Positions 8,266 through 60,431 of a stretch of DNA of 64,000 nt are shown here, in pieces; within the stretch, counting starts at the first letter, position 1; every line of letters starts with the position of its first letter. The stretch spans positions 65,107 through 129,106 of the forward strand of contig JBMYTN010000006.1 of NCBI GenBank assembly GCA_049604415.1, read 5' to 3'. Under the pieces are notes generated by a model. It searched no databases. It was not told the origin of the DNA and worked only from the letters and a program-made list of their open reading frames with translations. Origin of the DNA: Rhodospirillaceae bacterium. Lineage in GTDB: Bacteria > Pseudomonadota > Alphaproteobacteria > Rhodospirillales > Rhodospirillaceae. The translations under genes were made by a program, and so were the position numbers.

Positions 8266-8273
8266 GAGGACCC

Positions 8274-8666: not shown

Positions 8667-8671
8667 CGCTT

Positions 8672-9715: not shown

Positions 9716-9769
9716 GGGCGGCTGTCTCTATCGGTCTGCTGTCGGTCTGCGCGTCAGTCGCGCCGTCGG

Positions 9770-15400: not shown

Positions 15401-15536
15401 GTGGGGGCGGTGGGCCTTTGTCGAGTTCCAGGACGCTTGGTCGATGCCGAATGAATTTCAGGAGCTGATCGAAAAGTTTCTCGACAAAGTGATTGGCGAC
15501 TTCGTTGATCAGAATGCCGATGGGGAGGCTGCTTAG
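12435..15536 (+). CDS. Type III restriction enzyme Res-like subunit (SF2 helicase + C-terminal PD-(D/E)xK nuclease)
   Basis: 1033 aa. Walker A MATGSGKTTVMAM, DEAH box VINDEAHHC, helicase motif VI-like QVVGRALRR. C-terminal YIPDFIV...LIVEVKGY is a PD-ExK nuclease motif. AAGGGG Shine-Dalgarno upstream. Confidence 0.8.
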   Translation: MGTTFYDQPILNSPYEEPSRHHALDDEGQPTDDEPVLGRRKSDLTTPMVPGNRRQRANEAAGQTSLGLGIDAGDEGDDQQYDPTPIINEIRSKVAEWRRLPSTTDWGVTPATARLLKHWRDYDYSGIRPFFCQIEAVETIIWLTEVARKQKTGGHFWRHIESANRVANPDLLRLAMKMATGSGKTTVMAMLIAWQTVNAVRSPTSKLFSRGFLIVSPGITIRDRLRVLMPNDPQGYYKTRELVPADMLEDINKAKIVITNYHAFQLKELMDTNKVGRSLLQGRGEELKTKENEGQMVRRVAEELMGMKNVVVINDEAHHCYREKPGNDDIQELKGDEKKAAEEENKAARLWINGIEAFKKKLGVRFVFDLSATPFFLSGSGWREGALFPWTVSDFSLIDAIECGIVKLPRVPVADNALIPGNEMPVYRELWRHIGKEMPKKGRGKGGGDANPMDIPDMLKTALFALYKHYAETFEQWKRAGIETPPVFIVVCNNTSTSKLVQEWISGWERPNEDDEMVFEHNGHLELFRNYDNNGILLHRPNTLLIDSMQIESGEALDDNFKKIAAKEIELFQRERKERGEHGDITDSELLREVMNTVGKKGRLGEQVRCVVSVSMLTEGWDANTVTHILGIRAFGTQLLCEQVVGRALRRYSYDLNDASLFNVEYADIMGIPFNFTAKPQVAPPKPPKKTERVMAMKERSNLEIIFPRVAGYRVDLPEERLPVKFTENSSYTLTPEEVGPGQVLMEGIVGESVLISAGEAQKLRLSTISFNLAKHVMLKYFKDEDGEPKLHLFGQIKRIVRLWLDGGYFEAKGDTGTWMLASYPNVQAQAGERIYNAIVNGMNAEEEAGDLEPRVKAVLDPYNPKGSTAHVGFQTTKSLFKTSPVKCHINYVVADSGWEDQFAIAAEANPKVLCYVKNQGLGLEVPYKDGSNARVYIPDFIVQIDDGHGSDDPLNLIVEVKGYRNENVKLKSETMNTQWVPGVNNLGQWGRWAFVEFQDAWSMPNEFQELIEKFLDKVIGDFVDQNADGEAA

Positions 15537-16724
15537 GTGTCTCCTCGAAATGTCATAGAGGCACCAGAATTCTCGGAATTTGCCTTTGGCTTTTGCGTTA
15601 CTCAGGGGGTCGTAAATCTTCGCTTTGGTCAGTTTAGCCCATTTGGTGCTTCTGTCCGATTTGCCGCTCGGCACCGGGCAATACTATGGGATTGGGGTCA
15701 TTTGCACTATGAGTTGATACATGATTTTGGTCTTAGTCCGAAACAAGCCCGAGCCGTGCTCAACGAAACAGGTGCTCCCTTCCATCCGACGCAGAGTCAA
15801 GAAGCTACCTTCCCGATTGATGTCGCTATGACGAGCAACGGGGTCGCGTGCTTCTTTCAGTATAAGCGATGTGACTGCGTGACTGGCTCCCATAGCTCTT
15901 TGACTGAAGTAACGCAGGGAAGCTTTAGCAGCTTAGAGAAGCCATTCTATCGAGTGAATTTCAAGTGGACGGCACCTAATCCAAAAAAACCAAACTGTGG
16001 CGGTGATTTTAATCAGAGAGAGCAATTAGAGAGACTAGAAAACGCGTTATCCCATATTCCTTCAGCGTTGGTCCGCTATGTGGTCCCGGCATTCCATAAA
16101 TCGGAAGAGTTGGATATCGTTCAACAGGATGGCGTCGCTGCGCGATCAGATGGAGAACCGCTTGTCCTTTGTTTTCCAGCCAGCGCATTTTCGTTGCCTG
16201 CGGGGACAAATCACCATGTGAGCTTCGATAGAGCCTGCACCGCTTTTCGGCATTCCAAAGGGTCAGAGCCAGTGCAAGGATTTAGCCCGCTTGAAGACGA
16301 AATTGAGCGCTCGTCCGAAGAAACCAAACAGCCAGTGTTCAAGACCATACATAGTCTGCGCAAGGACCTTGATGCGTTTGCATCGAATTTAGGCGTTCCG
16401 GATCCGCCGGAACAGATCGATGATCAAAATTTGCTTCGGTTCTTTGGGATATGGCCTCGCCGCAAGCCCCGCGCATCAGATCAAGATTACTTGCGATTTT
16501 TTGCCGACGTCGAAGAGACACCGACAGAGATTTCGGACCTGTCGACAGGCCTCCGCAAGCTCTTAAAGCAACCGCTCGACAAATCACTCGTTGCTCTAAA
16601 GAATTATTCGCCCATGTCTTTTGTGGAAGATTGGTTTGCTGCGGATTTTCGCTGCCGACAGATCATTGGGCAGCCCTTGGGGGTAAACATAATGAGCTTA
16701 GGGGGCGGGCAAAATGGCGCGTAA
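15537..16724 (+). CDS. hypothetical protein encoded between Res-like and Mod-like genes (no recognisable motifs)
   Basis: 395 aa. GTG start immediately after the Res stop and 3' end overlapping the Mod start by 11 nt, so it is translationally coupled within the operon. AT-richer codon usage than the flanking genes. Confidence 0.5.
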   Translation: MSPRNVIEAPEFSEFAFGFCVTQGVVNLRFGQFSPFGASVRFAARHRAILWDWGHLHYELIHDFGLSPKQARAVLNETGAPFHPTQSQEATFPIDVAMTSNGVACFFQYKRCDCVTGSHSSLTEVTQGSFSSLEKPFYRVNFKWTAPNPKKPNCGGDFNQREQLERLENALSHIPSALVRYVVPAFHKSEELDIVQQDGVAARSDGEPLVLCFPASAFSLPAGTNHHVSFDRACTAFRHSKGSEPVQGFSPLEDEIERSSEETKQPVFKTIHSLRKDLDAFASNLGVPDPPEQIDDQNLLRFFGIWPRRKPRASDQDYLRFFADVEETPTEISDLSTGLRKLLKQPLDKSLVALKNYSPMSFVEDWFAADFRCRQIIGQPLGVNIMSLGGGQNGA

Positions 16725-33483: not shown

Positions 33484-34887
33484 TCAACGCCGGAAGAGCA
33501 CGATAAGACGATCAGGATCCTCCGAGTCGAGGGCCGGGATATCGATGGCATGCAGAGGTAAAAGCTTTCGGCTGACCTCTGGTGACAGGTCCAGTGTGGG
33601 AGCGGGTCCGGATAGAACGATCAACGCATAGTCGGTTTCCTGGTCAAGGGCCCACCGGGCGACGGCTTCGGCATTGCTTTGGCTTTGATTGGCACGTTCC
33701 AGATCGTGTTCCAAAACCTTGCCCGGACGATCGGGTAACGGCCAAAGCCTGCTCCAGCCATCTGGGTCCAAGGCAATGCTGCTCCCTGGCATGATGGCAC
33801 TGTCTAAGCTTTCTATGGCCGCGCGTTGCCCCGCGTGGATTTGACGATGGAAACCGGGCTGCTTTGCCAGCAGTGCTTTGCCAGAGCAAACCAATAAAAC
33901 GGTGCCAGCAGCCATGGCCAATGCGGGGCCAAATGGATCGGGCAGCGGGCTGATCAACAGATTTCCTGCCAGAGCCGCAGCCAAGAGAAGCAAGTGTTTC
34001 AGCCATAGGGGCTGAAGCAACGCAGTCCAGCGAAAGATCCTGTCTGCTCCGAGAGGACCAGCGGGGATCAGTCTTGATAGGGTATCCCGCCAAGTGGTCG
34101 AGGACCACCGGCACTGGTCCAAGCTCCAGCGGCGCAGAATGCCGAGATGGAGGGTTTCCAAGGCAAGCATGGAGGCGAAGCCAAGGACAACTGCCAGAAG
34201 CAGGTCTCCTGGTGAACTGCCGAGCATAAAGCTTAAGAGGAGGACCAGAGTCAGCGCAAAGGCGGCAAAAGCGGGATGGAACAGGATGATCACACTTACC
34301 AAGATCGCAAGAGTGATGTGGTTGGCGAGAAACAGGTCGGGCCCCCAGGTTGCGCAAGCCAAAATCCCGAGCAGGGCTGGGGTGACGATGGTTTCGGGCA
34401 GCAGCAAGGGCTGGTTCAGGAACTGGTCTATGTTGATCAGAAAGACCAAGGCCAAACACCAGCCCCAGGGGGAGGGGGCGAGGGTTACAAGCAGCAATGC
34501 TGTTAGCAGATTGGAGATGAAACAGAGCGGCACGGTGACGGCCCGCAGGGCGTTTGGCGAGGGCCCAAAAAAACGTATGGCCAAGGCCGCCAAAGCGGAT
34601 GTTCCCAGCCCCCACTGGGCTGAGGGTGGAACGGCGCTCCGTTGGGAGCGGATCTCTGCCAACCGGCCCTGCAATAGGGACATGGCATCCTGGCAAACCA
34701 AGCCTTGATCCCGCAATCGATTGCGAAAAGAGGGATCGATCCGAGCGATGCCGACGCCGATCTCTAACTTTAACCCAAACCGGTCAAGCTTCAGCTCAGA
34801 TTGAAGGAACGCGAGACCAAGGCAGAGAGAGCCCAACACCAGAAACGGGATCCAATCTGTGATCCCTGCGAAATCGATCATGCCCAC
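33484..34887 (-). CDS. large polytopic integral membrane protein (at least 10 predicted TM), function unknown
   Basis: 467 aa, mostly hydrophobic helices. No catalytic motif recognised. Confidence 0.5.
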   Translation of the reverse strand: MGMIDFAGITDWIPFLVLGSLCLGLAFLQSELKLDRFGLKLEIGVGIARIDPSFRNRLRDQGLVCQDAMSLLQGRLAEIRSQRSAVPPSAQWGLGTSALAALAIRFFGPSPNALRAVTVPLCFISNLLTALLLVTLAPSPWGWCLALVFLINIDQFLNQPLLLPETIVTPALLGILACATWGPDLFLANHITLAILVSVIILFHPAFAAFALTLVLLLSFMLGSSPGDLLLAVVLGFASMLALETLHLGILRRWSLDQCRWSSTTWRDTLSRLIPAGPLGADRIFRWTALLQPLWLKHLLLLAAALAGNLLISPLPDPFGPALAMAAGTVLLVCSGKALLAKQPGFHRQIHAGQRAAIESLDSAIMPGSSIALDPDGWSRLWPLPDRPGKVLEHDLERANQSQSNAEAVARWALDQETDYALIVLSGPAPTLDLSPEVSRKLLPLHAIDIPALDSEDPDRLIVLFRR

Positions 34888-34979
34888 ATGTCCACTGGTC
34901 CTATATTCTGTCTGTGGTGTTATGGCCTGGGTGCGGCCATTGTTCCAGCTTTGGGTTAGACAATCGACACAGAGGCATT

Positions 34980-36545
34980 ATGGAGGTTTTCGCGATCATT
35001 CTGGCCCTGGCCTGTGTGGTTCCGGTGATAGTGCTTTGCTGTTGGGCGTGTCATTGGGACGGGCCAGCACCGTTTTTCAACACGGTGCGAAGAGACCGGC
35101 TGGACCATTGGTTCCTGCATCATTGTGAAAAAATCACCATGACCGATGCCCGGGCTTGGCTGTGGCACCGGCGCTTGGGAACCCGATCAGAAGATTTGCG
35201 CCCCTATCCGCCGATTTATGCCTTTGGCTTGGCCTCGGCGCTGCCTTGCTTGCTCGGGTTTGCCAGTTTCGGGCTGACCAACCGGGGCATGCGCGTTCCA
35301 TTCTTGCTGATGAATGGCGCGGCTTGTGTTGGCATGGTGCTTTGCCTTCAGGCGATGATGCCCTGGTGGGCGGCTCTTACTGCGGCTGCGATCTTGCTGC
35401 TCAATGCCAATCAACTGCACTACATGATGGTCGGCGTGATCGAGCATGTGACCACCATTGCCCTTATTGCGCTGATTACTGTTTTGCTTCTGGTTCCGGC
35501 AACCCTCCTGGACCATCCTTGGATCATTGGCTTTGCCATTGGGGTGCTGATCTGGGTGAAGCAAACCTGCATGGGGATTGTGGCAGTTGCTTTTGTCGTT
35601 CTGTCCGCTGCCCTGGGGGGCTGGTTGGCAGGGCTGGTGGCAGCAGTGGCCTGCCTGCTTGGTGCGGTTTTGGCCGAAGCATTGCAGTTGCTTGTGATGG
35701 CCCGATTGGGCTGGGCCGGGAAACGGTTGCAAAACCTGCGGGAAGCCTTCGCTTTGTTTACCGGGCGCTCGGCGAACAAAGTGAATTCCGCCGTTATCCC
35801 GCTGAAAATGGCCAAACTACGGATCTACCCTTATCTGTTTCGCAATTTGGCAGAATGGTTGTGGTTCACAGGCCCCGATGGTGTCAAAGACCATGGAGTG
35901 ACCGCTTGGGTGGGGTGGGCGTTTTTGAGTGTTTTTAGTCTCACCGGCTTGCTTTGCCTGGTGATAAATGGGGTCAGTCACCCGGTTTCAGCCTTATTCC
36001 TGGCTTTGATGGTGATCATCGGTGCCCATGGTGCTTTTTCCTACTGGCTGAAGCGCAGCGCTCCCTTGTTTCTGCCGATCCTGCTCTGTCAGATTTTGTT
36101 GCTGGAGACCGTGGCGGTGGCTCTTATGGGGCAACCGGGCTGGTCTCTGGTGCCCCTTGCAGGATTGTTGGTTTTGCAGGTCATGCTGCATGGTCCGTTG
36201 CTGCGCAATTGGGTGCGCCAGCGTCGCACCATCACCAAAGACTTGGCTGATGGTCTCACTGATGTCGTGTCGGAAGAGACCATCTACGCCCATAATTACT
36301 GCCAGCGCTTTTTTTGGCAGGCCCCTGTGCGGTTTAAGGCCGGGGATGATCAGTGGTACCACAATCAGGACATTATTGAGTGGTTGGCCAAAGAGCGGGG
36401 AACCTATCTGATGACCTCGGCCTATGGTCGGGACGCGGTATTGCCGGACGGGTGTCGGGCGGAAAAACTGGGCGAGTGGCCATCAACCCCGGCCCATATG
36501 TCGGGCAATGACACCTATACCCTGTTCCGGATCACCTGGGTCTAA
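34980..36545 (+). CDS. large polytopic integral membrane protein with C-terminal soluble domain, function unknown
   Basis: AGAGG Shine-Dalgarno 6 nt before ATG at 34980 (the ORF track starts at 34914). Multiple TM helices, then a roughly 100-aa hydrophilic C-terminus. Divergent from 33484-34887. Confidence 0.5.
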   Translation: MEVFAIILALACVVPVIVLCCWACHWDGPAPFFNTVRRDRLDHWFLHHCEKITMTDARAWLWHRRLGTRSEDLRPYPPIYAFGLASALPCLLGFASFGLTNRGMRVPFLLMNGAACVGMVLCLQAMMPWWAALTAAAILLLNANQLHYMMVGVIEHVTTIALIALITVLLLVPATLLDHPWIIGFAIGVLIWVKQTCMGIVAVAFVVLSAALGGWLAGLVAAVACLLGAVLAEALQLLVMARLGWAGKRLQNLREAFALFTGRSANKVNSAVIPLKMAKLRIYPYLFRNLAEWLWFTGPDGVKDHGVTAWVGWAFLSVFSLTGLLCLVINGVSHPVSALFLALMVIIGAHGAFSYWLKRSAPLFLPILLCQILLLETVAVALMGQPGWSLVPLAGLLVLQVMLHGPLLRNWVRQRRTITKDLADGLTDVVSEETIYAHNYCQRFFWQAPVRFKAGDDQWYHNQDIIEWLAKERGTYLMTSAYGRDAVLPDGCRAEKLGEWPSTPAHMSGNDTYTLFRITWV

Positions 36546-36557
36546 ACGCCTGGAACC

Positions 36558-36600
36558 AGGCCGTTGACTCAAAAACGTCCCGTTTATGAGGCTACGGCCT
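36558..36600. repeat. 43-bp palindromic intergenic element, copy 2
   Basis: AGGCCGTTGACTCAAAAACGTCCCGTTTATGAGGCTACGGCCT, located between convergent genes. Confidence 0.6.
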
Positions 36601-36627
36601 AAAGGGCCAATACGGGTGGATTAGGCG

Positions 36628-38397
36628 TCAAGCGGCGCTATCTGTGGCAACTTGTTCAGGCGTTTTGCTCTGCCCTGGTGGCAGATCTTTGACCAGGCGG
36701 CGCAGTTGTTGGGTTGTGGCCCGGATCTGTGCGGCTTTTTTGGTTTCCGGAATTTCTTCCTCGCCATTGTTTTCATACCCCGCAGGCAGGATCATCTCGC
36801 CGGTGATCTCACCTTGGACGCTTTCGATATCGAAATCCGTCGGCTTCATATTGCCCGACTGGATCACCATGTTGGACCAGCCGTAGAGCCAAATTGAAAA
36901 CAGCTTCCCGACATTCTGGATCCGTTTGCGCCGAGACAGCAGCAACAGCAACCCCTTGGTTACAAAATAGACCCGCATCGGATGGAGCAAAAACCGTCCC
37001 ATGCGCAGACTTAAGGATGCCAGAACCAAGCGGTTGCGGATCACATTGCGCAGCAATTCGGCCAAGCTGCCATAGCCCGCCCCTTCCTGGGCGATGAAAT
37101 TGCCGGTTTCTAAATTTTCCACATAGTTCCGCAGCCGTCGATATTGGTGCCGTCCATCTGCGGATGACTTCATAAAATGCACATAGCCCTTAATCAGGGT
37201 TTCTGTCGGCAGCAAATAGCGGATGTTGGTCTGGAATTTGAAGCGACCGATATGGGCTGCTAAGGGGCGCAAGCGACCGCTCAGCTTCATCCGGCGATAG
37301 AGCGGTGTGCCGGGCAAAGCGACCAGCAGGCCGGGGTTGGAGGTCAGCAAGCAGGACTCTTCCATGCCCTCCAGGGATTTGTCGAAGATTTCCGGCGTGT
37401 CGGAATCAAAGCCGAAGATCAGCCCTGGGGTCACGATGAAGCCATAAGATTGAATTTGACGCAGCGCCTCAGGCAGATCGAACTTCTTCGAGCGGTTTTG
37501 TACCTTGCTCATTTCCAGCAAGGTGTTGGTGTCGAAGGACTCCACACCGATGAACAGAACATCGAACCCAGCCTGGCGCAGCTTGACCATCAAGGCCGGG
37601 TCTTGGGCCAGATTGATGGTCAGCCAAGTGAAAAAGCTGGGTCGGTGACCGGTGCGCTCGCGCCATTCGATCATCTTGTCGGCCACTTCATGGGCCCAGC
37701 GGGGCTCGCCAATGAAGTTATCGCAACACAACATGAAGGACTTCACGCCCAAATTGGCTAGGCGATCCAAATCCTCAATGATCACATCGGGGTCTTTGTT
37801 GTGGGCCCGATTGTTGTCGGTCAAGATCCGGATATCGCAGAATTCGCATAGGAACGGACAGCCTCGGGAGACTTCCAACAGGGTGCCGTAATAGTGGTGG
37901 ACGTATTTTTTCAACAGCGCTTGGTCCATGGGCATGGAGCCGCCCATGTTGAAGCGTTGCGGGGCGCGAATGACACGGTCTTCTTCAGATTTGCCACGCA
38001 CCGCATCCAGCAAGCGGTTGATGATCAGCTCGCCATCGCCAATGCAGATGTAATCGAAAGGGGTGAATTCGTTCAGCCAACCAGCTTGGTCAAAGGACCA
38101 TGTGATCGGGCCGCCAATGGCGAATTTGGCTTTCGGATAGCGGGCTTTCAGGCGCTCTGCCACCCCGCGCATATAGTCCAGATCCTGGTTTAGCGCGCTA
38201 AACAAAAAAGCGTCCGCTTCACCAATCTCATCTTCAGAGCAGATGCGGGTGTCAAACAGATCATAGGTTATGGAGGCGCGGTCTTCTATGAACGGCGCGA
38301 TCACCATCGCCCAGAGCGGGGTATAGGCATTGCCGAAATTCTGCCTTGCCTGATAGACCGGATCGGGCGCGTGAATAAAGTGGACGCGGTAAGACAT
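36628..38397 (-). CDS. B12-binding domain radical SAM protein (class B radical SAM family)
   Basis: N-terminal Rossmann-like cobalamin-binding region (FAIGGPITW), radical SAM cluster motif CPFLCEFC (CxxxCxxC), C-terminal extension. Start chosen at MSYRVHF, which has a better Shine-Dalgarno than the 38445 start. Confidence 0.8.
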   Translation of the reverse strand: MSYRVHFIHAPDPVYQARQNFGNAYTPLWAMVIAPFIEDRASITYDLFDTRICSEDEIGEADAFLFSALNQDLDYMRGVAERLKARYPKAKFAIGGPITWSFDQAGWLNEFTPFDYICIGDGELIINRLLDAVRGKSEEDRVIRAPQRFNMGGSMPMDQALLKKYVHHYYGTLLEVSRGCPFLCEFCDIRILTDNNRAHNKDPDVIIEDLDRLANLGVKSFMLCCDNFIGEPRWAHEVADKMIEWRERTGHRPSFFTWLTINLAQDPALMVKLRQAGFDVLFIGVESFDTNTLLEMSKVQNRSKKFDLPEALRQIQSYGFIVTPGLIFGFDSDTPEIFDKSLEGMEESCLLTSNPGLLVALPGTPLYRRMKLSGRLRPLAAHIGRFKFQTNIRYLLPTETLIKGYVHFMKSSADGRHQYRRLRNYVENLETGNFIAQEGAGYGSLAELLRNVIRNRLVLASLSLRMGRFLLHPMRVYFVTKGLLLLLSRRKRIQNVGKLFSIWLYGWSNMVIQSGNMKPTDFDIESVQGEITGEMILPAGYENNGEEEIPETKKAAQIRATTQQLRRLVKDLPPGQSKTPEQVATDSAA

Positions 38398-38540
38398 TCT
38401 GTTTGCCCCGCCAAGCTGTTCCAGTTGGGACTGATCACTCCGCATTCTGCGAAGCCTATATTAGAATGCCAATTGGTTAATTTCTTTTTAAGACGCAAGC
38501 CAATTCGGTCTCAAAGGTCGGGTTTTCGTCAACTGGCGCA

Positions 38541-51091: not shown

Positions 51092-52012
51092 GTGTTATTC
51101 CAGGACCACCACCTTTGTGGACTGCATCTAGGGGCCTCCTGTCCCCTGCCGGACCTGCCGGTTGCCCAGGGCATGGCCGGGCAGGACCCCGAGATCACGC
51201 TCCTGGTGGAGGCTCTGGCCCCCATATTGCCCGAGGCGACCCATCGGGCACCGCTGTTTCAATTAAGGGGGCTCGAGGATTGCTTGTTCGACCTGCCCGG
51301 CCTCGGTCGGGCCTTGATCAGCCGTGGCAATCGGGTGGTCCTCGACCCCTTGGTCACCCTGCCGGAGGTCCTGTCGTCGTTCTGGGATGTGGTCTTGCCG
51401 CTTCTGAGCCTGCAAAGGGGCTGGGTGCCGTTTCGCGCCAGTGCTGTTGTTGGACCTGCCGGAGCGGTCTTGATCGTGGGGCATTCCGGGTCCGGCAAAT
51501 CCGTCGCGGCCGCACAACTGCTTAGTGGCGGGTTTTCTTGCGCTGGGGATGGCGTTGTGCCGGTGGACCTGTCCGGATCGGTGCCCATGTTGCGCCCGAC
51601 ATCCGGAACGCTTCGGCTTTGGCCAGCAATGGCCGACCTCTTCACCGGACAGGCGGAAACCCATTCGGACCATTCCGGTCGGGTGTGCATGCCAACAGCA
51701 TTGCCGCAGACCGCGCCCATACCCGTGCGGGGGATTGTGCGGCTCAGGGTCAGGGCCGGAGGGATTGAGATGGGGAGCCAGGATGAAACCGGGGTCGATG
51801 CTTTGGCCTTGGTCCAGGAGGCGGTCGCGGCCCAGGCCGTCGCCCGGTTGACGGGCCAATTGAGCAAGATTTTTGCCGCCAACGCCACCATGGTGCAGAC
51901 GGTTCCTTGTGTCACTTTGGTGCGGGATACGGTGATAGGGTCTTTGCCCGCATGGCAAGCCCTGTTGGAACGCTCAGTGCGGCATCTCTTGGGGCAGGAG
52001 GGGCAGCCATGA
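51092..52012 (+). CDS. HPr-kinase-C-domain-like (HprK-related) kinase, lasso-peptide-cluster type
   Basis: AVLIVGHSGSGKSVAAAQLLSGGFSCAGDGVV matches the HprK P-loop/C-domain pattern. Stop overlaps the sulfotransferase start (ATGA). Start could instead be 51170. Confidence 0.65.
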   Translation: MLFQDHHLCGLHLGASCPLPDLPVAQGMAGQDPEITLLVEALAPILPEATHRAPLFQLRGLEDCLFDLPGLGRALISRGNRVVLDPLVTLPEVLSSFWDVVLPLLSLQRGWVPFRASAVVGPAGAVLIVGHSGSGKSVAAAQLLSGGFSCAGDGVVPVDLSGSVPMLRPTSGTLRLWPAMADLFTGQAETHSDHSGRVCMPTALPQTAPIPVRGIVRLRVRAGGIEMGSQDETGVDALALVQEAVAAQAVARLTGQLSKIFAANATMVQTVPCVTLVRDTVIGSLPAWQALLERSVRHLLGQEGQP

Positions 52013-52854
52013 CCGCCCGGATCGTTTGGCTCGCCTCCTATCCCAAATCCGGCAATACCTGGCTGCGGTTCTTGCTCGACAGTCTGCTGCGCGGTGGGGC
52101 ACCGGTAGACATCAATCATGTCCGCCTGCCCGAGGCCCATGCCGCCAACCGGCATTTGTTCCGCAGCATTCTTGATGTGGAGGCCAGCAGTTTCGATCCC
52201 ACGACCGCCGATACCCTTCGACCCGTGCTCTATCGGCACTGGGTGAAGGACCGCCAAGGGCTGCTGTTTAGCAAAACCCATGATCGCTATCGCCGGGTCG
52301 CCGATGGATCGCCCTTGTTTCCGGCAGACATTTCCCATGGGGTTATCCATTTGATCCGAGATCCCCGGGATGTCGCTGTCTCCTTATCCCACCAGTTGGG
52401 GTTAGACCTTGGTCGGGCTGCGGACTGGGTTTGCTCCCGGCCATTGGAGCGGATCGGTCCTTCCCATGACATTTTATACGCCCAATTGCCGGAGGTGATC
52501 GGCGACTGGGCCGGGCACAGCGAAAGCTGGCGCGAGACCCCACTGCCTCGGCTGGTGGTGCGCTATGAGGATTTGGTCACCGACCCTCGGGCATCTCTTG
52601 GGGCCGTGGCCGGTTTTCTCCAGCTATCCCCATCGCGCGACATACTGGACGCTGCGATTGGGCAGTGCCGTCTGGAACGCTTGCAGGCCCAGGAACAAGG
52701 GGATGGATTTCGCGAGGCGTCCGGCGTGCGGTTTTTTCGCAGCGGACGTATTGGCCAGGGACGCGTGACCCTTTCGGCGCAGCACTTGACCCGTATTGAG
52801 GCCTGTCTTGGCCCCGAGATGGCCTGCCATGGCTATGAGGGTTCTGGAGACTGA
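52009..52854 (+). CDS. sulfotransferase family protein
   Basis: PAPS 5'-phosphosulfate-binding motif SYPKSGNTWLR, 3'-phosphate region RDPRDVAVS. Confidence 0.75.
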   Translation: MTARIVWLASYPKSGNTWLRFLLDSLLRGGAPVDINHVRLPEAHAANRHLFRSILDVEASSFDPTTADTLRPVLYRHWVKDRQGLLFSKTHDRYRRVADGSPLFPADISHGVIHLIRDPRDVAVSLSHQLGLDLGRAADWVCSRPLERIGPSHDILYAQLPEVIGDWAGHSESWRETPLPRLVVRYEDLVTDPRASLGAVAGFLQLSPSRDILDAAIGQCRLERLQAQEQGDGFREASGVRFFRSGRIGQGRVTLSAQHLTRIEACLGPEMACHGYEGSGD

Positions 52855-52958
52855 ATTTCCCCATAGGGTGAGTAATAATTTTGACAATCGCATATATCGT
52901 TTTTTATACAATAGGGATAATAAACCCACTTATTGAGATCATAAATAGGACGCTGCCC
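52855..52958 (+). promoter_or_regulatory. AT-rich putative promoter region for the lasso precursor gene
   Basis: 104-bp markedly AT-rich segment (TTGACAATCGCATATATCGTTTTTTATACAATAGGGATAATAAA) immediately upstream of the precursor ORF, in an otherwise GC-rich context. Confidence 0.35.
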
Positions 52959-53120
52959 ATGACTGACCATTCTGATCATCGTGAGTTGGCCGCCGATGCG
53001 GCTCAAACCGGTCAAAAGCAAGCTTGGTCCAAACCCTGCCTGAATGTCTTGGATATCTCCGAGACGTCAGGGGGGACCGCGCTGGATACCTCGGAAACAG
53101 CCTTTACCCGAGCATCCTAA
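52959..53120 (+). CDS. lasso peptide precursor (A gene), 53 aa; predicted leader MTDHSDHRELAADAAQTGQKQAWSKPCLNVLDISETS and core GGTALDTSETAFTRAS
   Basis: Small ORF immediately 5' of the Asn-synthetase-like cyclase. Leader has a WxxPxL motif and Thr at position -2. Core starts with Gly and has Glu at position 9 (9-membered ring possible; Asp6 is too short). Ser/Thr-rich core with a C-terminal Ser. Confidence 0.55.
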   Translation: MTDHSDHRELAADAAQTGQKQAWSKPCLNVLDISETSGGTALDTSETAFTRAS

Positions 53121-55046
53121 ATGGTCGCATTGGCCGGGGTGGTGGCCGAGGAAGATCGGCCCCCCTTCGCGCCTTTGCAAACACAGTTCAACGCCTCACC
53201 AACCCTCACCTGGGCTTGTTGTCCTGGGGCCTCTGCACAGTGCGTTATGGGAACCCTTCTTGCGAATGGCTCGCCAGAGCCGGTGGGACGGAGCATGGCA
53301 CATCATGCCCCCACCGGTGTCATGGTGGTGGCCGATGCTTGGTTACCCCCAGATCCTCATTGCCGAGTCCATGGGGCAGCGGAGCGGGTCGCCCAGCTTT
53401 ATCTTGCCCATGGTTCGGATGCGTTTGAGCGCTTGGAAGGCGAGTTTGCCATTGCGCTTTGGGATCCTCGGACCCGGTGCTTGCTGTTGCTCCGGGATGG
53501 TTTTGGCTGTCGACCGCTCTATTACCGGCTTTGGCCCGATGGTCGTTTGGCCTTCAGCAGCTTGATCGCACCGTTGATCGGTTTTGAGGAGGCGGCTCCG
53601 GGGGTCAATCCGGATTGGATTGCTGACTACCTGACCCGCAGCGAAAGCGATCCGGAGATCACGCCCTATCTGGGCGTCTCCCGCCTGCCCCCAGGACATC
53701 TGCTGACATGGCACGCGGGCAGGCTGTTCACGCGCCGGGTCTTCTACTTTGACCCTCCGGACCCGCTCGACTGGTCCGCAGCCCGCATCCAAGACGCTTT
53801 TGCCGCCCATCTGGAGCGGGCCGTCAGAGACCGCTTAACCCCAGGGATCCAATCTTTCGGGGCTGAACTCAGCGGCGGTCTGGACAGCAGCGCCGTGGTT
53901 AGCATCGCCGCTGCAGGGCTGCCCGTTGGGACGCTGTCCTCCCCGCTGCGGACCTATTGCCACGGCCTAAGCCCACAGGAGCGCGGCACGGTCTGGCCGT
54001 TTGAAGACGAAACCGCCCATGCGGCTTTGGTGGCGAACCATCTTGGGCTGACAGAGACCCATCACATCGTTCCGTCCCAGGGGCATAGTTTTTTGGACCA
54101 TGCGGATCGCATCCAAGCGGTTCATGGCGGGCCCTTGGTCGATGGGTTCGCCTGCCATTCCGATCCGGTGCTGCGACAGGCCCAAGCCGATGGCGTTGGG
54201 GTGATGCTCTCCGGTCAAGGCGGCGATCAATATGCCTCCGCGCCCTGCGGCATGGTGATTGGCGAATATGCCCAATCCCGGGCGTGGCGGGCGCTCTGGC
54301 GGGAATGTCGCGCTGCGGGGCAGGCCAGAGCTCCCGGGGCGCATGAAGCGTCCTGGCGTACCTTTCTCCGGGCAAGCCTTCGGGCGGAATTCGGTGCCCT
54401 CTATGGCTGGCTGCGCCCTAGGGCGGACCACGTGCCGTTTGGCCAGGAGGTTTTGGCGTCTCTGACGGTGCCGCAGTCGTTTTATCAGGAGATGGATTTG
54501 GCGGGGCGGGTTGATCGCGCCAGCCAGCAAGGGCGGTTTCGCAGCGTTGCGGCCCAGCAAGCCAGCTGGGTCGGGCAAGCCCCCTTTAGCCTTCGTTTGG
54601 AAAGCTCCTGGGTCGCCGGTTTTGTCCATGGCGTGACCTATCGCTACCCGTTGTTGGATTTGGCCTTGGTCCGCTTTGTGCTGTCGATCCCGGTGCAGCA
54701 CAGAGTGTTTCGTGGTCAAGGCCGGTTGCTGATGCATCGATTTCTCCAAAAGCGCCTTCCGGCCTCCATCGCTTGGCGGCGGGACAAGGCCCAGACCGCT
54801 TTGCCCGGCGTTGCCGCTCGCATGCGCCGCGCCATGCCCGTTTTACGCCAGCGCCTTGAGGAGATCCAAAGCGGTCCCCTCGCGGCGTCTTACATCGATT
54901 TTGCCGCGCTGTTTGCGCAGATGGCGCGATTGGGCGAGGGGGAGACGGCGTTGGATCAACCGGTCGACCGGGCGGCTCTGATCAATCTGCAGCGGGTGGT
55001 GATGTTGGGTTTGTTTTTGCAGCAGCAGGAGAAGAGGGGGCCATGA
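53121..55046 (+). CDS. lasso peptide isopeptide-bond-forming cyclase (asparagine synthetase-like, C protein)
   Basis: AsnB-like N-domain remnants (FAIALWDPRTRCLLLLRDGFGCRPLYY) and PP-loop ATP pyrophosphatase motif SGGLDSS. ATG directly follows the precursor stop. Stop overlaps the PqqD start. Confidence 0.75.
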   Translation: MVALAGVVAEEDRPPFAPLQTQFNASPTLTWACCPGASAQCVMGTLLANGSPEPVGRSMAHHAPTGVMVVADAWLPPDPHCRVHGAAERVAQLYLAHGSDAFERLEGEFAIALWDPRTRCLLLLRDGFGCRPLYYRLWPDGRLAFSSLIAPLIGFEEAAPGVNPDWIADYLTRSESDPEITPYLGVSRLPPGHLLTWHAGRLFTRRVFYFDPPDPLDWSAARIQDAFAAHLERAVRDRLTPGIQSFGAELSGGLDSSAVVSIAAAGLPVGTLSSPLRTYCHGLSPQERGTVWPFEDETAHAALVANHLGLTETHHIVPSQGHSFLDHADRIQAVHGGPLVDGFACHSDPVLRQAQADGVGVMLSGQGGDQYASAPCGMVIGEYAQSRAWRALWRECRAAGQARAPGAHEASWRTFLRASLRAEFGALYGWLRPRADHVPFGQEVLASLTVPQSFYQEMDLAGRVDRASQQGRFRSVAAQQASWVGQAPFSLRLESSWVAGFVHGVTYRYPLLDLALVRFVLSIPVQHRVFRGQGRLLMHRFLQKRLPASIAWRRDKAQTALPGVAARMRRAMPVLRQRLEEIQSGPLAASYIDFAALFAQMARLGEGETALDQPVDRAALINLQRVVMLGLFLQQQEKRGP

Positions 55047-55330
55047 CCATCACCCTAACGTCGACGGTTCGAAAGTCAGAAGGTCCGGTCGAGGCCTCCA
55101 TGGATGGGCGCACGGTCATGCTGAACATGGCCTCGGGCAAATATTTTGGCTTGGATGATATCGGGACCGATGTCTGGTCCCGGTTGGAAGGCTCGGTTGC
55201 GGTGATGGCTCTGGTGGATGCCTTGGAGGCCCTCTATGACGCGCCCAGGGCGACCTTGGAAGCCGACGTGTTGGAGTTTTTGCGCGCCCTGGAAACGGAA
55301 GGGCTGGTCGAAGCCGTGCCAAGCGCCTAA
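55043..55330 (+). CDS. PqqD-family RiPP recognition element (lasso B1 protein)
   Basis: 95 aa. Pattern DGRTVMLNMASGKYFGLDDIGTDVWSRL...LVDAL...DVLEFLRALETEGLV is typical of PqqD/RRE. Confidence 0.7.
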   Translation: MTITLTSTVRKSEGPVEASMDGRTVMLNMASGKYFGLDDIGTDVWSRLEGSVAVMALVDALEALYDAPRATLEADVLEFLRALETEGLVEAVPSA

Positions 55331-55369
55331 ACAGCCCAAACCGGTTTTTGAGATGGGAGAGGGCGCGGT

Positions 55370-55981
55370 ATGGCACCGACGGTCGTGGTTTTTGACATTG
55401 GCGGAGTCCTGGTGGATTGGAACCCGAACCACCTTTATCGCAAGCTGATCCCGTCGGATGCCGAGCGCGAAGCCTTCCTGCGCGACATTTGCTCCCCGGC
55501 CTGGAACCACCAATTCGATGCGGGAGTGTCCTTCACCGCTGGTGTGGATGCGCTCTCGGCCCAGCATCCCGACAAAGCCGATTTGATTGCCGCCTATCGC
55601 GACCGCTGGGTCGAAATGCTGGAGGGCTCGTTCGAAGACACGGTCCGTCTGCTCCGGCGTTTGCAGGCTGCCGGTGTGCCGCTGCATGCCATCACCAATT
55701 GGTCGATGGAGACCTTCCCCATCGCCCAGCAGCGCTTTGACTTTTTGCAAGGCTTCGATGTCCTGGTGGTTTCCGGGGCGGAAAACATGGCCAAGCCCGA
55801 CCCGGCGATTTTCCGCCTGTTCCTAGAGCGGGCTGGGGAGACGGCGCAGAACTGCCTGTTCATTGATGACAATGCAGCCAATATCGAAAGCGCTTCGGCG
55901 CTCGGCTTCCACACCCATCATTTCAAACAGGCTGCGGCCCTTGAGGCGGATCTTTTGGCCTATGGCCTGCTCAAGGCCTGA
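55370..55981 (+). CDS. HAD-superfamily hydrolase (subfamily IA-like)
   Basis: Motif I VVFDIGGVL (DxG), motif III region K, motif IV FIDDNAANIESA. Confidence 0.75.
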   Translation: MAPTVVVFDIGGVLVDWNPNHLYRKLIPSDAEREAFLRDICSPAWNHQFDAGVSFTAGVDALSAQHPDKADLIAAYRDRWVEMLEGSFEDTVRLLRRLQAAGVPLHAITNWSMETFPIAQQRFDFLQGFDVLVVSGAENMAKPDPAIFRLFLERAGETAQNCLFIDDNAANIESASALGFHTHHFKQAAALEADLLAYGLLKA

Positions 55982-58750: not shown

Positions 58751-58793
58751 AGGCCGTAAACTCAAAAACGTCCCGTTTATGAGTTTACGGCCT
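58751..58793. repeat. 43-bp palindromic intergenic element, copy 3 (near-perfect palindrome); overlaps the stop codon of the convergent ABC ATPase gene
   Basis: AGGCCGTAAACTCAAAAACGTCCCGTTTATGAGTTTACGGCCT. Confidence 0.65.
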
Positions 58794-59580
58794 ACGCCTC
58801 TCCATGGAGCAGGGCGTGGTAATGGTTGAACGCCCCTTCCACATCGCCGAAATGCACCATTCTGCCTTTGTGCAGCAGCATGGCTTTGTTGCACCAGCGA
58901 CGGATGATGTTGTCATCATGGCTGGCAACAACGACGATCCCGGCGCTGGTCATGAAGCTTTCAAAGCGCTCTGAGGCCTTTTCCATAAAGGCCGCATCTC
59001 CGGCCCCAATGGCCTCATCCATGATCAGGATGTCCGGGCGCACGGAGGTCGCCATGCCGAAGGCCAGGCGCACCAGCATGCCTTGGGAATAGGTCCGGAT
59101 CGGCATTTCCAGATATTCGCCCAGCTCGGTGAACTCGGCCATTTCCCGGATCAGGGAATCTGCTTCCTGCTCACGCAACCCCATCAGCAGGGCGCGGGTT
59201 TTCACCGCCGCCAGCCCGCTTGCATTGGGGTCATAGCCTTCCATCAGGTCGAACACCGGGGTCAAAGAGCCTTCGACGGTCAGATGGCCTCCGGTGGGTT
59301 CATAGATCCCGGCGAGCATTTTCAGCATGGTGCTTTTGCCCGCCCCATTATGGCCGATAATGCCCAGGCGGTCGCCATTGACCAGCTCGAAATTGATGTC
59401 ATCCAGCGCCTTAATGACCACCCGGTTGCCGCCTTGCTTGGTGATGGTGCCACCAACCATTTTGGCTTGGCCGGAAAACACCGACTTCATCGGATTGATC
59501 AGAACCGCATGCCGCAGGGAGCGGTTTTGGTCATAAATCGGGAAGTCGACGACGATGTCTTCAGCTTTGATATACGCCAT
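58792..59580 (-). CDS. ABC transporter ATP-binding protein, KpsT/Wzt/TagH-like (polysaccharide-type exporter)
   Basis: Walker A GIIGHNGAGKSTMLKMLAG, signature YSQGMLVRLAFG, Walker B ILIMDEAIGAGD. Start at MAYIKAEDI; the ORF is open to 59601. Confidence 0.75.
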   Translation of the reverse strand: MAYIKAEDIVVDFPIYDQNRSLRHAVLINPMKSVFSGQAKMVGGTITKQGGNRVVIKALDDINFELVNGDRLGIIGHNGAGKSTMLKMLAGIYEPTGGHLTVEGSLTPVFDLMEGYDPNASGLAAVKTRALLMGLREQEADSLIREMAEFTELGEYLEMPIRTYSQGMLVRLAFGMATSVRPDILIMDEAIGAGDAAFMEKASERFESFMTSAGIVVVASHDDNIIRRWCNKAMLLHKGRMVHFGDVEGAFNHYHALLHGEA

Positions 59581-59591
59581 GGGGGCGGCCT

Positions 59592-60431
59592 TCAGATCCA
59601 ATAGGTGATGCGGGCGCGGAACTTGGAAAAGAACACCAAGGCCGCAAGCGAGCCGACCACCGCAGCAATGGTGCAGACCAGGTAGTTCAGCATGGAGGCC
59701 GGTTCACCCATCAAAGGCGAGCGCACGACTTCCATCAAATGGGTCAGCGGATTGAAGTTCAGGAAATAGGCATGCTCGCCCAACTGCTCCGGATAATAAA
59801 TCACCGGGGTCAGCCAGAAGGCGGCGTTGATCAGATTGGTCACAATCATCGGCACATCCCGGAAGCGGACCGCCAGGATCGCCAGGATGGTCAACAGCCA
59901 AGTGCAATTGATCACCAGCAAGAAGATCCCAACCAGCAGCAGGGCCAAGCCGCTGAAAATATCCAGGGTGCCGCCAATGCCGGGCAAGGTGCCGTAAATC
60001 ATCCCGATGACAATGTAGATCGGCGACACATGCAGCCAGATCACGATGGTTCGCCACATCGCCAGCAGCACATAGAGGAACCGGGGTCGGTTATGCGAGG
60101 TCAGATGGCTGTGAGAACTGATAAAGATCATCACCGCTTCGGTGGCGACCGTGGTGATCAGGTTCCAAACCAGCAGGGAGGCGCTGAGATAGGGCAAATA
60201 GCGCGGCAGGGGCAGGTTGAACATGATCCCAACCAAGACCCCCATGGTCAGGATGGTCACCAGCATGCTGGCGGTGAGCCAGAACGGACCCAGGGTCGAG
60301 CGGCTGTAGCGTTGCTTCAGCTCCAGCATGGTCAGATGATGCCAGACGAACCATTGCTGAAAGGCGGCCTGGATGTCGCGCACCGCAAGGGTGAGGGATG
60401 ACGGAGGCTGGGACATGAGAAACACGCTCAC
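59592..60431 (-). CDS. ABC-2 type transporter permease (KpsM/Wzm-like)
   Basis: 279 aa, 6 TM, ABC-2 family pattern, immediately upstream of the ATPase. Confidence 0.7.
   Translation of the reverse strand: MSVFLMSQPPSSLTLAVRDIQAAFQQWFVWHHLTMLELKQRYSRSTLGPFWLTASMLVTILTMGVLVGIMFNLPLPRYLPYLSASLLVWNLITTVATEAVMIFISSHSHLTSHNRPRFLYVLLAMWRTIVIWLHVSPIYIVIGMIYGTLPGIGGTLDIFSGLALLLVGIFLLVINCTWLLTILAILAVRFRDVPMIVTNLINAAFWLTPVIYYPEQLGEHAYFLNFNPLTHLMEVVRSPLMGEPASMLNYLVCTIAAVVGSLAALVFFSKFRARITYWI

What the first reader, a model, noticed from the sequence alone, without database searches (positions are those of the whole stretch)
51092..55981. Lasso-peptide biosynthetic cluster with HprK-like kinase and sulfotransferase tailoring genes
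Gene order is: HprK-related kinase, PAPS-type sulfotransferase, 53-aa precursor, Asn-synthetase-like cyclase (C), PqqD RRE (B1), HAD hydrolase.

Kinase-containing lasso clusters are known (paeninodin type), where the kinase phosphorylates the precursor's C-terminal Ser. Proteobacterial versions with an added sulfotransferase have only been predicted bioinformatically, and no sulfated lasso peptide has been characterised as far as I know.

The cluster is embedded among housekeeping genes (folD/fchA upstream, the valS-like ligase downstream).
Basis: partly seen in the sequence, partly recalled or inferred. Interest (0 to 1): 0.75.

Follow-up and report, generated by a model that had tools for sequence, protein, structure and literature searches.

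The report
Minimal lasso-peptide cluster with sulfotransferase
This is a real but stripped-down gene cluster for a small knotted ("lasso") peptide that carries a sulfotransferase and a kinase-like gene; the cluster type is widespread and already noted in the literature, no product has been characterised, and this copy lacks the leader-cutting protease and two catalytic residues of the kinase.

Summary
On the + strand lie an HprK-like gene (51092-52012), a PAPS-type sulfotransferase (52009-52854), a 53-aa precursor (52959-53120), a lasso cyclase (53121-55046) and a PqqD RRE (55043-55330). They are tightly packed between fchA/folD and a HAD gene plus valS.

The precursor is a typical paeninodin-type substrate: WSKPCL leader motif with Trp at -15, Thr at -2, a 16-aa core GGTALDTSETAFTRAS, Glu9 and a C-terminal Ser.

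The sulfotransferase belongs to a large family: at least 569 matching stretches in species-representative genomes. In 80 fetched loci it is almost always preceded by, and apparently translationally coupled to, an HprK-like gene, with lasso C and B1 genes nearby.

- No B2 leader peptidase, ABC exporter or NTP-transferase lies anywhere in the 64 kb. This minimal layout recurs in 13 other genomes.
- The kinase-like protein folds confidently as HprK/PEPCK-like. It has Arg115 and Gly154 where 82 of 94 relatives, and HprK/P itself, have the catalytic His and Asp.
- The HAD gene is not conserved in related loci.

Verdict: a divergent minimal member of a predicted, uncharacterised cluster type. Moderate interest.

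The parts
51092..52012 (+). K*: HprK/PEPCK-fold kinase-like protein, 306 aa. The P-loop GHSGSGKS (res 130-137) is intact. The catalytic His position is Arg115 (codon 51434-51436) and the second catalytic Asp position is Gly154 (codon 51551-51553).
   Evidence: BLASTP to related lasso-locus kinases. Family profile against PDB HprK/P. AF2 model pLDDT 94.3 with Foldseek hits to PEPCK and HprK/P. Catalytic tetrad census: HKDD in 82 of 94 relatives, RKDG here.
52009..52854 (+). ST: PAPS-dependent sulfotransferase, 281 aa. Its start overlaps the K stop (ATGA). Motifs: PKSGNTW (res 12-18), K89-x-H91-D92, RDPRD (117-121), S125.
   Evidence: Pfam Sulfotransfer_1, E 6e-19. All invariant family columns are present. 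It keeps 44 of 48 highly conserved sites. Closest solved structures to the family profile are Teg14, Teg12 and StaL, E about 1e-29 to 1e-25.
52855..52958 (+). AT-rich spacer before the precursor gene. It holds TTGACA (52881-52886), then TATACA 18 nt downstream, and AGGA 7 nt before the ATG. Candidate dedicated promoter and RBS.
   Evidence: Read directly from the sequence. The consensus scanner did not call it, so this is a suggestion only.
52959..53120 (+). A: 53-aa precursor. The leader is residues 1-37 (52959-53069) with WSKPCL (Trp at -15) and Thr at -2. The core is GGTALDTSETAFTRAS (53070-53117): Gly1, Glu9, C-terminal Ser16.
   Evidence: NF033524 hit, E 2.4e-4. Same design as 50 candidate precursors in related loci. 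WxxP at W-15 is described as typical of paeninodin-like leaders in PMC13381572.
53121..55046 (+). C: lasso macrolactam synthetase (Asn-synthetase homologue), 641 aa. It starts on the base after the precursor stop codon. It lacks an N-terminal Cys nucleophile (MVALAG...). The SGGLDS ATP-binding motif is at 53871-53888.
   Evidence: Pfam and NCBIfam hits. It keeps 23 of 24 highly conserved family sites. Nearest database relative is the cyclase of a Bacteroidales K-ST lasso locus, 27% identity. By contrast, 68 of the 120 top sequence hits are true AsnB enzymes starting MCG.
55043..55330 (+). B1: PqqD-type RiPP recognition element, 95 aa. It overlaps the C stop by 4 nt.
   Evidence: PqqD E 8e-19 and lasso_PqqD_Bac E 9e-20. 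34-43% identity to B1 proteins of related loci.
55370..55981 (+). HAD-IA hydrolase, 203 aa. It is adjacent (39-nt gap) and on the same strand. Membership in the cluster is not supported.
   Evidence: Pfam Hydrolase and HAD_2. No homologue near the cluster genes in 80 related loci; one weak hit at the edge of L084.

Best explanation
A compact five-gene cassette, K*-ST-A-C-B1, from an uncultured Rhodospirillaceae genome. It belongs to the large kinase- and sulfotransferase-associated branch of paeninodin-like lasso peptide clusters.

Proposed pathway:
1. B1 binds the WSKPCL motif of the 53-aa precursor.
2. The leader is cut after Thr-Ser (residues 36-37) by a B2-type cysteine peptidase that is not encoded here and must act in trans.
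3. The cyclase joins Gly1 to the Glu9 side chain. This gives a 16-residue lasso: a 9-membered ring and a 7-residue tail, TAFTRAS.
4. The intact PAPS sulfotransferase adds sulfate to a hydroxyl of the peptide, most plausibly on the linear precursor and at or near the C-terminal Ser16. The core has no Tyr.
5. The HprK-like protein keeps its fold and P-loop but has lost the catalytic His and the Asp matching HprK/P Asp179. It is therefore most likely a poor or inactive kinase that serves as a partner or adaptor of the sulfotransferase with which it appears translationally coupled.

Shown: gene identities, precursor design, family membership, the missing genes and the substituted catalytic residues.
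Inferred: ring position, sulfation site, order of steps, the non-catalytic role of K*, and trans-acting B2 and export.
For: - Domain assignments.
- Tight packing: K/ST and C/B1 overlap by 4 nt, and C starts directly after the A stop.
- The precursor matches the family design. Of 51 candidate precursors in 41 loci, 40 end in Ser, about 43 have D/E at position 8 or 9, and the modal core length is 16.
- ST relatives sit in lasso loci. Among 89 sequences scanned with my HMMs (the window, a duplicate assembly of it, two unrelated AsnB loci and 85 related loci), K was found in 77, C in 64 and B1 in 70.
- 67 of 87 STs have K directly upstream on the same strand. In 58 of these the K stop lies within 40 nt of the ST's N-terminal motif.
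- C, ST and B1 keep 23/24, 44/48 and 3/4 highly conserved sites, while K keeps 10/13. K's losses include H115R and D154G.
- These two positions align with His140 and Asp179 of L. casei HprK/P (residue numbering from my own knowledge).
- K folds with pLDDT 94, so it is not a decaying ORF.
- The B2-less, NTP-less layout recurs in 13 other loci with at least 8 kb of flank on both sides, including cultured Novispirillum, Sphingorhabdus, Ancylobacter and Sphingomonas.
- Some loci with several K-ST-C sets show only one B1-B2 pair (L053, L057), which makes trans use of B2 plausible.
- The ST family profile's closest structures are the glycopeptide-tailoring enzymes Teg12, Teg14 and StaL.
Against: - No product is known for any cluster of this type, so the sulfation target is a guess.
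- The Teg/StaL relatives sulfate phenols, and this core has no Tyr; 26 of 51 family cores do.
- H-to-R at the catalytic His position recurs independently in about 5% of relatives, so Arg might be a tolerated replacement and K* might retain activity.
- Degenerate kinases in other loci usually sit beside an intact paralogue (L023, L062, L076, L084). Here none is in view.
- Only 64 kb of the genome was available, so B2, a second kinase and an exporter may or may not exist elsewhere.
- No close relative exists: best non-self identities are 27% for C and 31% for K. Selection on the cassette could therefore not be measured.
Confidence: 0.55

Rival explanations
1. Canonical reading. K is an active Ser kinase that (poly)phosphorylates the C-terminal Ser of the precursor, as PadeK, ThcoK and SyanK do. 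ST adds a sulfate as a second tailoring step. The product is a phospho- and sulfo-lasso peptide.
For: Homology and fold of K to HprK-like lasso kinases. The P-loop Lys136 and first Asp153 are retained. The precursor has the conserved C-terminal Ser. H-to-R variants recur convergently, which may mean that Arg is functional. Reviews report that proteobacterial SyanK phosphorylates C-terminal Ser (PMC8498205, PMC9266682).
Against: Arg115 and Gly154 replace the His and second Asp of the His-Lys-Asp-Asp motif. A review reports these as essential by mutagenesis in lasso kinases (PMC9266682). They are present in 82 of 94 relatives and 123 of 149 top representatives. In every relative that lost the second Asp to G, S or A while keeping the first Asp, the His is also replaced. 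That is the pattern expected after loss of catalysis.
Confidence: 0.22
2. Relic cassette: a remnant of a fuller K-ST-A-C-B1-B2-NTP-D cluster that has lost its peptidase, exporter and kinase activity and makes no mature product.
For: No B2, D or NTP_transf_5 in 64 kb. Kinase catalytic residues are substituted. The only K in view is the degenerate one. All proteins are very divergent from every relative.
Against: All five ORFs are intact, with start/stop overlaps preserved. C, ST and B1 keep almost all conserved sites. The precursor keeps every recognition feature. K* models with very high confidence. GC3 is close to that of the flanks for K and B1 and lower for ST, C and the short precursor gene, which suggests long residence without decay. 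The same minimal layout occurs in 13 other genomes, all with at least one K that keeps the H-K-D-D residues.
Confidence: 0.18
3. Not a lasso system: the Asn-synthetase homologue is an ordinary amidotransferase and the small ORF is fortuitous.
For: The cyclase scores below the NCBIfam lasso cut-off (198 against 525 bits). Many of its sequence neighbours are AsnB enzymes in polysaccharide loci, for example L003.
Against: It lacks the Cys nucleophile. It is apparently translationally coupled to a PqqD RRE and directly follows a precursor with WxxPxL, Thr-2, Glu9 and a C-terminal Ser. Its best database hit is the cyclase of a complete K-ST-B1-B2 lasso locus.
Confidence: 0.03

Closest known systems
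Paeninodin cluster of Paenibacillus dendritiformis C454 and its relatives ThcoK and SyanK (Zhu et al. 2016, as summarised in PMC8498205 and PMC9266682)
   Same: Split B1, Asn-synthetase-type cyclase, HprK-homologous gene, precursor with WxxP leader motif, Thr-2 and an invariant C-terminal Ser, and a 9-residue ring closed on an acidic residue.
   Different: The window has no B2, no ABC exporter D and no NTP-transferase. It has a sulfotransferase apparently translationally coupled to the kinase gene. The kinase lacks the His and second Asp of the catalytic His-Lys-Asp-Asp motif. Sequence identity to any relative is 33% or less for K and about 27% for C.
Kinase-plus-sulfotransferase lasso clusters noted by genome mining (Letzel et al. 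2014, PMC4289311; Zhu et al. 2016 via PMC8498205)
   Same: The same gene combination. My census shows that the K-ST pair is a conserved, apparently translationally coupled module in lasso loci of many phyla.
   Different: Those reports concern mainly Firmicutes and give no product or function. This copy is alphaproteobacterial, minimal and carries a degenerate kinase.
Pseudomycoidin cluster of Bacillus pseudomycoides (Zyubko et al. 2019, via PMC8498205 and PMC9266682)
   Same: The C-terminal Ser is modified by a kinase and then by a second transferase acting on the phospho-Ser. The cyclase can work without leader and leader peptidase, which is a precedent for B2-independent cyclisation.
   Different: The second enzyme there is an NTP-transferase-like glycosyl-adding protein, not a sulfotransferase. 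B2 and D are present in that cluster.
Linear polyphosphorylated peptides, LPP (Popov et al. 2026, PMC13381572)
   Same: HprK-like kinase plus a discrete RRE acting on a ribosomal peptide, without B2.
   Different: [quoted passage not shown] The window has a cyclase, a WxxP leader and none of those genes.
Glycopeptide sulfotransferases StaL, Teg12 and Teg14 (PDB 2ov8, 3mg9, 3nib)
   Same: Closest solved structures to the ST family profile (E 1e-25 to 1e-29). PAPS-dependent tailoring of peptide natural products, with the same 5'-PSB and 3'-PB motifs.
   Different: They sulfate phenolic hydroxyls of non-ribosomal glycopeptide aglycones. The window's core peptide has no Tyr.

Membership tests
Lasso peptide biosynthetic gene cluster | Precursor with a leader recognition motif (Y/WxxPxL), Thr at -2, a core starting with a small residue, and Asp or Glu at position 7-9 | tested here: met
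   WSKPCL with Trp at -15, Thr at -2, Gly1, Glu9. Weak NF033524 hit.
Lasso peptide biosynthetic gene cluster | ATP-dependent macrolactam synthetase (Asn-synthetase homologue, C) | tested here: met
   Asn_synthase E 2.7e-35. Best NCBIfam hit is the lasso cyclase model NF033535, at 198 bits, below its 525 cut-off. SGGLDS motif present and no Cys nucleophile. 23 of 24 conserved family sites kept.
Lasso peptide biosynthetic gene cluster | RiPP recognition element (PqqD-like B1, or the N-terminal part of B) | tested here: met
   PqqD E 8e-19; lasso_PqqD_Bac E 9e-20.
Lasso peptide biosynthetic gene cluster | Leader peptidase (transglutaminase-like Cys protease, B2 or the C-terminal part of B) | tested here: not met
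   No hit anywhere in the 64 kb by tblastn with two B2 proteins, by an iterated B2 HMM at E<1e-3, or by Pfam scans of about 45 window ORFs. The rest of the genome could not be searched.
Paeninodin-type phosphorylated lasso peptides | HprK-homologous kinase encoded in the cluster | tested here: met
   BLASTP E 2e-16 to related kinases. Family profile against 1jb1, E 2.6e-8. AF2 model with Foldseek hits to PEPCK and HprK/P.
Paeninodin-type phosphorylated lasso peptides | Catalytic His-Lys-Asp-Asp residues of the kinase | tested here: not met
   The window has Arg115-Lys136-Asp153-Gly154. 82 of 94 locus relatives and 123 of 149 top representatives have H-K-D-D. The positions align with the H, K, D, D of HprK/P in 1jb1.
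Paeninodin-type phosphorylated lasso peptides | C-terminal Ser on the core peptide (the phosphorylation site) | tested here: met
   The core ends ...TRAS. 40 of 51 family precursors end in Ser.
Paeninodin-type phosphorylated lasso peptides | Phosphorylated product | not testable with these tools
   Needs expression and mass spectrometry.
PAPS-dependent cytosolic-type sulfotransferases (Sulfotransfer_1) | 5'-phosphosulfate loop PKSGxTW, 3'-phosphate motif RDPxD...S, and a catalytic His | tested here: met
   PKSGNTW at residues 12-18, RDPRD at 117-121, S125, K89/H91/D92. All family-invariant columns are present. Pfam E 6e-19.
PAPS-dependent cytosolic-type sulfotransferases (Sulfotransfer_1) | Acceptor is the lasso precursor or the mature lasso peptide | not testable with these tools
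   Supported only by conserved gene linkage.

The most novel reading that the evidence does not exclude
The cassette makes a sulfated rather than phosphorylated lasso peptide. A catalytically dead HprK-like protein has been retained as a substrate-presenting partner of the sulfotransferase. The leader is removed without a dedicated cluster-encoded B2. If so, in the very widespread K-ST lasso family sulfation does not depend on prior phosphorylation, and pseudokinase adaptors are a recurrent, convergently evolved component of RiPP tailoring.
Probability: 0.18. Interest if true: 0.7.

Novelty: new variant of a known kind. Interest (0 to 1): 0.45.

Why it matters
Lasso peptides are sought-after stable scaffolds, and I found no sulfated example reported. 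The census made here shows that the kinase-sulfotransferase pair is one of the commonest accessory modules of lasso clusters. It gave at least 569 matching stretches in species-representative genomes, across Proteobacteria, Bacteroidota, Acidobacteriota, Chloroflexota, Actinomycetota and Firmicutes. Its chemistry is still unknown.

This window adds a natural experiment: an intact sulfotransferase next to a kinase-like protein that lacks two catalytic residues, in a layout without B2. That helps frame two testable questions. Does sulfation need phosphorylation? How are B2-less cassettes processed?

The window itself is a poor experimental handle, because it comes from an uncultured MAG and is incomplete. 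Cultured carriers of the same module are better starting points: Novispirillum itersonii DSM 11590, Sphingorhabdus soli, Ancylobacter rudongensis, Sphingomonas caeni, Sporomusa silvacetica and Mucilaginibacter rivuli.

Tried and rejected
- **B2 search.** tblastn with B2 proteins from L002 and L005, an iterated B2 HMM over all six-frame ORFs of the window, and Pfam scans of about 45 window ORFs found nothing.
- **Alternative local peptidase.** Clustering unassigned ORFs of all loci gave no family enriched in B2-less loci. Only ABC transporters, a CysN-like gene (6 loci) and unrelated families came up.
- **Synteny test for the HAD gene and the insertion boundaries.** The metagenome scan with ValS returned only 42-43% identical relatives with no shared neighbours, so it was uninformative.
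- **Close relatives for measuring selection or checking conservation of R115/G154.** None exist. The best non-self identity is 27% for C among 5.8 billion proteins and 31% for K among 1.84 billion representatives.
- **A possible R/G kinase clade.** Rejected. The nearest neighbours of these variants are mostly H-K-D-D proteins, so the changes arose repeatedly.
- **Extending the window.** The right-end look-up found nothing on record. The left end added 3.7 kb holding only ABC transporter genes and a thioesterase gene.
- **SiaC/DUF6272/SpoIIE genes.** They occur both in the window and beside the Bacteroidales lasso locus L005. Tested as a possible link and found in no other locus, so this is coincidence.
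- **Promoter/terminator scan.** Not above chance.
- **Primary literature.** The JBC 2016 paeninodin paper could not be read, so statements about it come from reviews.


Full report
**Observation**

Pfam and NCBIfam give clear assignments for four of them:
- Sulfotransferase: Sulfotransfer_1, E 6e-19.
- Asn-synthetase homologue: Asn_synthase E 2.7e-35. Its best NCBIfam hit is the lasso cyclase model NF033535, at 198 bits, which is below that model's narrow cut-off of 525.
- PqqD protein: E 8e-19; lasso_PqqD_Bac E 9e-20.
- HAD hydrolase.

The 53-aa ORF hits the paeninodin-family precursor model weakly (E 2.4e-4). The first ORF hits Hpr_kinase_C only weakly (E 0.0085). Upstream on the minus strand lie fchA and folD, and downstream a genuine valS (NF009687, 994 bits).

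The DNA comes from an uncultured 'Rhodospirillaceae bacterium' MAG. Three other public assemblies are 100% identical over their overlaps, and one of them (L001) spans the whole cluster.

**Anatomy**

| Gene | Coordinates | Notes |
|---|---|---|
| K | 51092-52012 | HprK-like |
| ST | 52009-52854 | overlaps K by ATGA |
| A | 52959-53120 | 53-aa precursor |
| C | 53121-55046 | starts on the base after the A stop codon |
| B1 | 55043-55330 | overlaps C by 4 nt |

Gene callers start K at 51173.

A 104-nt AT-rich spacer precedes the precursor gene. It holds a perfect TTGACA, a TATACA 18 nt downstream, and an AGGA 7 nt before the ATG. GC3 of K and B1 (0.74) matches that of the flanking housekeeping genes (0.72-0.76), while ST (0.67), C (0.69) and the short precursor gene (0.56) are lower. 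There is no obvious sign of recent transfer.

**Precursor**

The sequence is MTDHSDHRELAADAAQTGQKQAWSKPCLNVLDISETS/GGTALDTSETAFTRAS. It carries WxxPxL with Trp at -15 and Thr at -2. This is the arrangement described for paeninodin-like leaders, with PbaA W-15 as the example (PMC13381572).

The 16-aa core starts with Gly, has Glu at position 9 and ends in Ser. Asp6 would give a ring smaller than any known, so Gly1-Glu9 is the likely isopeptide. That is the same ring size as paeninodin (this last comparison is from my own knowledge).

I extracted 51 candidate precursors from 41 related loci:
- 40 end in Ser.
- About 43 have Asp or Glu at position 8 or 9.
- 37 start with G, S or A.
- 16 aa is the commonest core length.

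The window peptide is a typical member.

**Relatives**

The cyclase has no close relative among 5.8 billion proteins. Apart from itself, the best hit (27% identity) is the cyclase of a Bacteroidales MAG locus, L005. That locus carries B2, B1, ST, K, C and an NTP-transferase, plus a 40-aa precursor ending GGNPYAVGESIAYDS.

The ST belongs to a large family, with 5,079 hits at E<1e-10 and about 40% identity. The contexts of its top hits are again lasso loci.

I fetched 80 of these loci, from Alpha-, Beta-, Gamma- and Deltaproteobacteria, Bacteroidota, Acidobacteriota, Chloroflexota, Actinomycetota, Firmicutes, Cyanobacteria and others.

I built HMMs from the first loci and iterated them once. I scanned 89 sequences with them: the window, a duplicate assembly of it, two unrelated AsnB loci and 85 related loci. 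K was found in 77, C in 64, B1 in 70, B2 in about 50 and NTP_transf_5 in 35.

Of 87 ST genes, 67 have K immediately upstream on the same strand. In 58 of those the K stop lies within 40 nt of the ST's N-terminal PAPS loop. K-ST is therefore a conserved gene pair, apparently translationally coupled, within lasso clusters.

**Two architectures**

I took the 46 loci with at least 8 kb on both sides of the ST:
- 16 have K+ST+C+B1+B2, and 13 of these also have NTP_transf_5.
- 14, including the window, have K+ST+C+B1 with no B2, and 12 of these also lack NTP_transf_5.

The B2-less set includes Azospirillaceae, three Sphingomonas, Novispirillum itersonii DSM 11590, Sphingorhabdus soli, Ancylobacter rudongensis and Sporomusa silvacetica. 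No alternative peptidase family is enriched in these loci. Some loci with several K-ST-C sets show a single B1-B2 pair (L053, L057). Use of B2 in trans is therefore plausible.

In the window itself, no B2, MsbA-type exporter or NTP-transferase was found anywhere in the 64 kb.

The HAD gene has no counterpart near the cluster genes of the other loci. An ABC-2 exporter pair downstream of valS has no homologous permease in the other loci. I treat both as neighbours.

**The kinase-like protein**

A profile of the family aligns with L. casei HprK/P (1jb1) over the segment H...GxSGxGKS...DD at E 2.6e-8. The spacing (His, +21 Lys, +17/+18 Asp-Asp) matches His140, Lys161, Asp178 and Asp179. That numbering is from my own knowledge of HprK/P. 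A review states that lasso kinases share a His-Lys-Asp-Asp motif whose four residues are essential by mutagenesis (PMC9266682).

- In the fetched loci, 82 of 94 family members have H-K-D-D. The window protein has Arg115-Lys136-Asp153-Gly154.
- It keeps 10 of 13 highly conserved family positions. For comparison, C keeps 23/24, ST 44/48 and B1 3/4.
- An exhaustive search of 1.84 billion representatives found 3,843 relatives, none above 31% identity. Of the top 149, 123 have H-K-D-D. A minority carry R-K-D-D or R-K-D-G/S/A.
- These variants do not form a clade, so the substitutions arose repeatedly.
- In every relative that lost the second Asp to G, S or A while keeping the first Asp, the His is also replaced. 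That is the pattern expected once catalysis is lost.
- In other loci, degenerate copies usually accompany an intact paralogue (L023, L062, L076, L084). In the window the degenerate copy is the only one in view.
- The AlphaFold model is very confident (pLDDT 94.3, pTM 0.92). Its best structural matches are PEP carboxykinases and HprK/P. The protein is a well-formed member of the fold, not a decaying ORF.

**The sulfotransferase**

All family-invariant residues are present: PKSGNTW, K89/H91/D92, RDPRD and S125. The closest solved structures to the family profile are Teg14, Teg12 and StaL, which are PAPS-dependent tailoring enzymes of glycopeptide antibiotics. A CysN-like sulfate-activation gene lies in six of the related loci. 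Twenty-six of 51 family cores contain Tyr, but the window core has none. The acceptor here would therefore have to be a Ser or Thr hydroxyl.

**Most likely mechanism**

1. B1 binds the WSKPCL leader.
2. A B2-type peptidase encoded elsewhere cuts after Thr36-Ser37.
3. C closes Gly1-Glu9.
4. ST sulfates the peptide, probably as the linear precursor and near the C-terminal Ser.
5. K* acts as a weak or inactive kinase retained as a partner of ST.

The gene identities, the missing genes and the residue substitutions are shown by the data. The ring, the modification site, the order of steps and the adaptor role are inferences.

The last is very unlikely given the missing Cys nucleophile and the coupling to A and B1.

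**What is known**

HPr-kinase and sulfotransferase genes in lasso clusters were noted by genome mining in 2014 (PMC4289311) and in 2016 (summarised in PMC8498205). Kinase function was shown for PadeK, ThcoK and SyanK. A second transferase acting on the phospho-Ser was shown for pseudomycoidin (PMC9266682). Reviews from 2022 and 2026 list no sulfated lasso peptide (PMC9266682, PMC13352647), and my full-text searches found none. A 2026 paper describes HprK+RRE clusters without a cyclase, the LPPs (PMC13381572). The window differs from those in having a cyclase and a WxxP leader.

**Verdict**

The cluster type is common and has been noted before, its chemistry is uncharacterised, and this copy is a divergent minimal variant with a probably inactive kinase and no leader peptidase in view. 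Interest is moderate. The general question of what K-ST does to lasso peptides is open and testable, but it is better addressed in the cultured carriers identified here.

Noticed in passing
window 3176-9715 (+); L005 14236-15781: A SiaABC-like signalling module: a 1504-aa SBP_bac_3/PAS/SpoIIE phosphatase, DUF6272, SiaC, then an adenylate/guanylate cyclase. The same SiaC/DUF6272/SpoIIE trio sits beside the Bacteroidales K-ST lasso locus L005. It occurs in none of the other related loci, so the co-occurrence looks coincidental.
   Followed up: yes
window 12435-19686 (+): Three large genes: a ResIII/endonuclease protein (1033 aa), an unknown protein (395 aa) and an N6/N4 DNA methylase (990 aa). 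Their GC3 is below 0.62, against about 0.75 for neighbours. This looks like an acquired restriction-modification or defence island.
   Followed up: partly
window 33484-38445: Two large ORFs (467 and 543 aa, divergent) with no Pfam match, next to a B12-binding radical SAM protein with DUF4070.
   Followed up: no
window 52855-52958: The AT-rich spacer before the precursor gene has a perfect -35 hexamer (TTGACA) at 52881, a TATACA 18 nt downstream, and an AGGA 7 nt before the ATG. This may be a separate promoter for the precursor. The consensus scanner did not call it.
   Followed up: partly
window 58792-60431 (-): An ABC-2 type exporter pair (ATPase 269 aa, permease 279 aa) lies just downstream of valS. 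The permease has no homologue in the 80 related lasso loci, so it is probably not the lasso exporter.
   Followed up: yes
window 2-2268 (+) and L093 1-6005: The left edge of the window continues into two ABC transporter ATP-binding genes plus a thioesterase gene. This may be the tail of another secondary-metabolite locus.
   Followed up: partly
L023 (Novispirillum itersonii DSM 11590) 8782-16342; also L008, L039, L061, L081: Many related loci carry two or three HprK-like paralogues. In L023 one has H-K-D-D and two are degenerate (N-R-D-S and D-K-D-G), alongside two sulfotransferases. This suggests kinase/pseudokinase pairs are a recurring feature of the family.
   Followed up: partly
L063 9876-11087 and five other loci: A CysN-like (sulfate adenylyltransferase subunit 1 / GTPase) gene lies close to the K-ST lasso genes in six loci, consistent with a local PAPS supply.
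   Followed up: no
L028 11071-12957, L030 11151-12887, L079 6629-8854: In some Chloroflexota and Acidobacteriota loci, the B2 peptidase match lies in a roughly 580-740-aa ORF, apparently fused to another domain. An ABC transporter is my guess; I did not check it.
   Followed up: no
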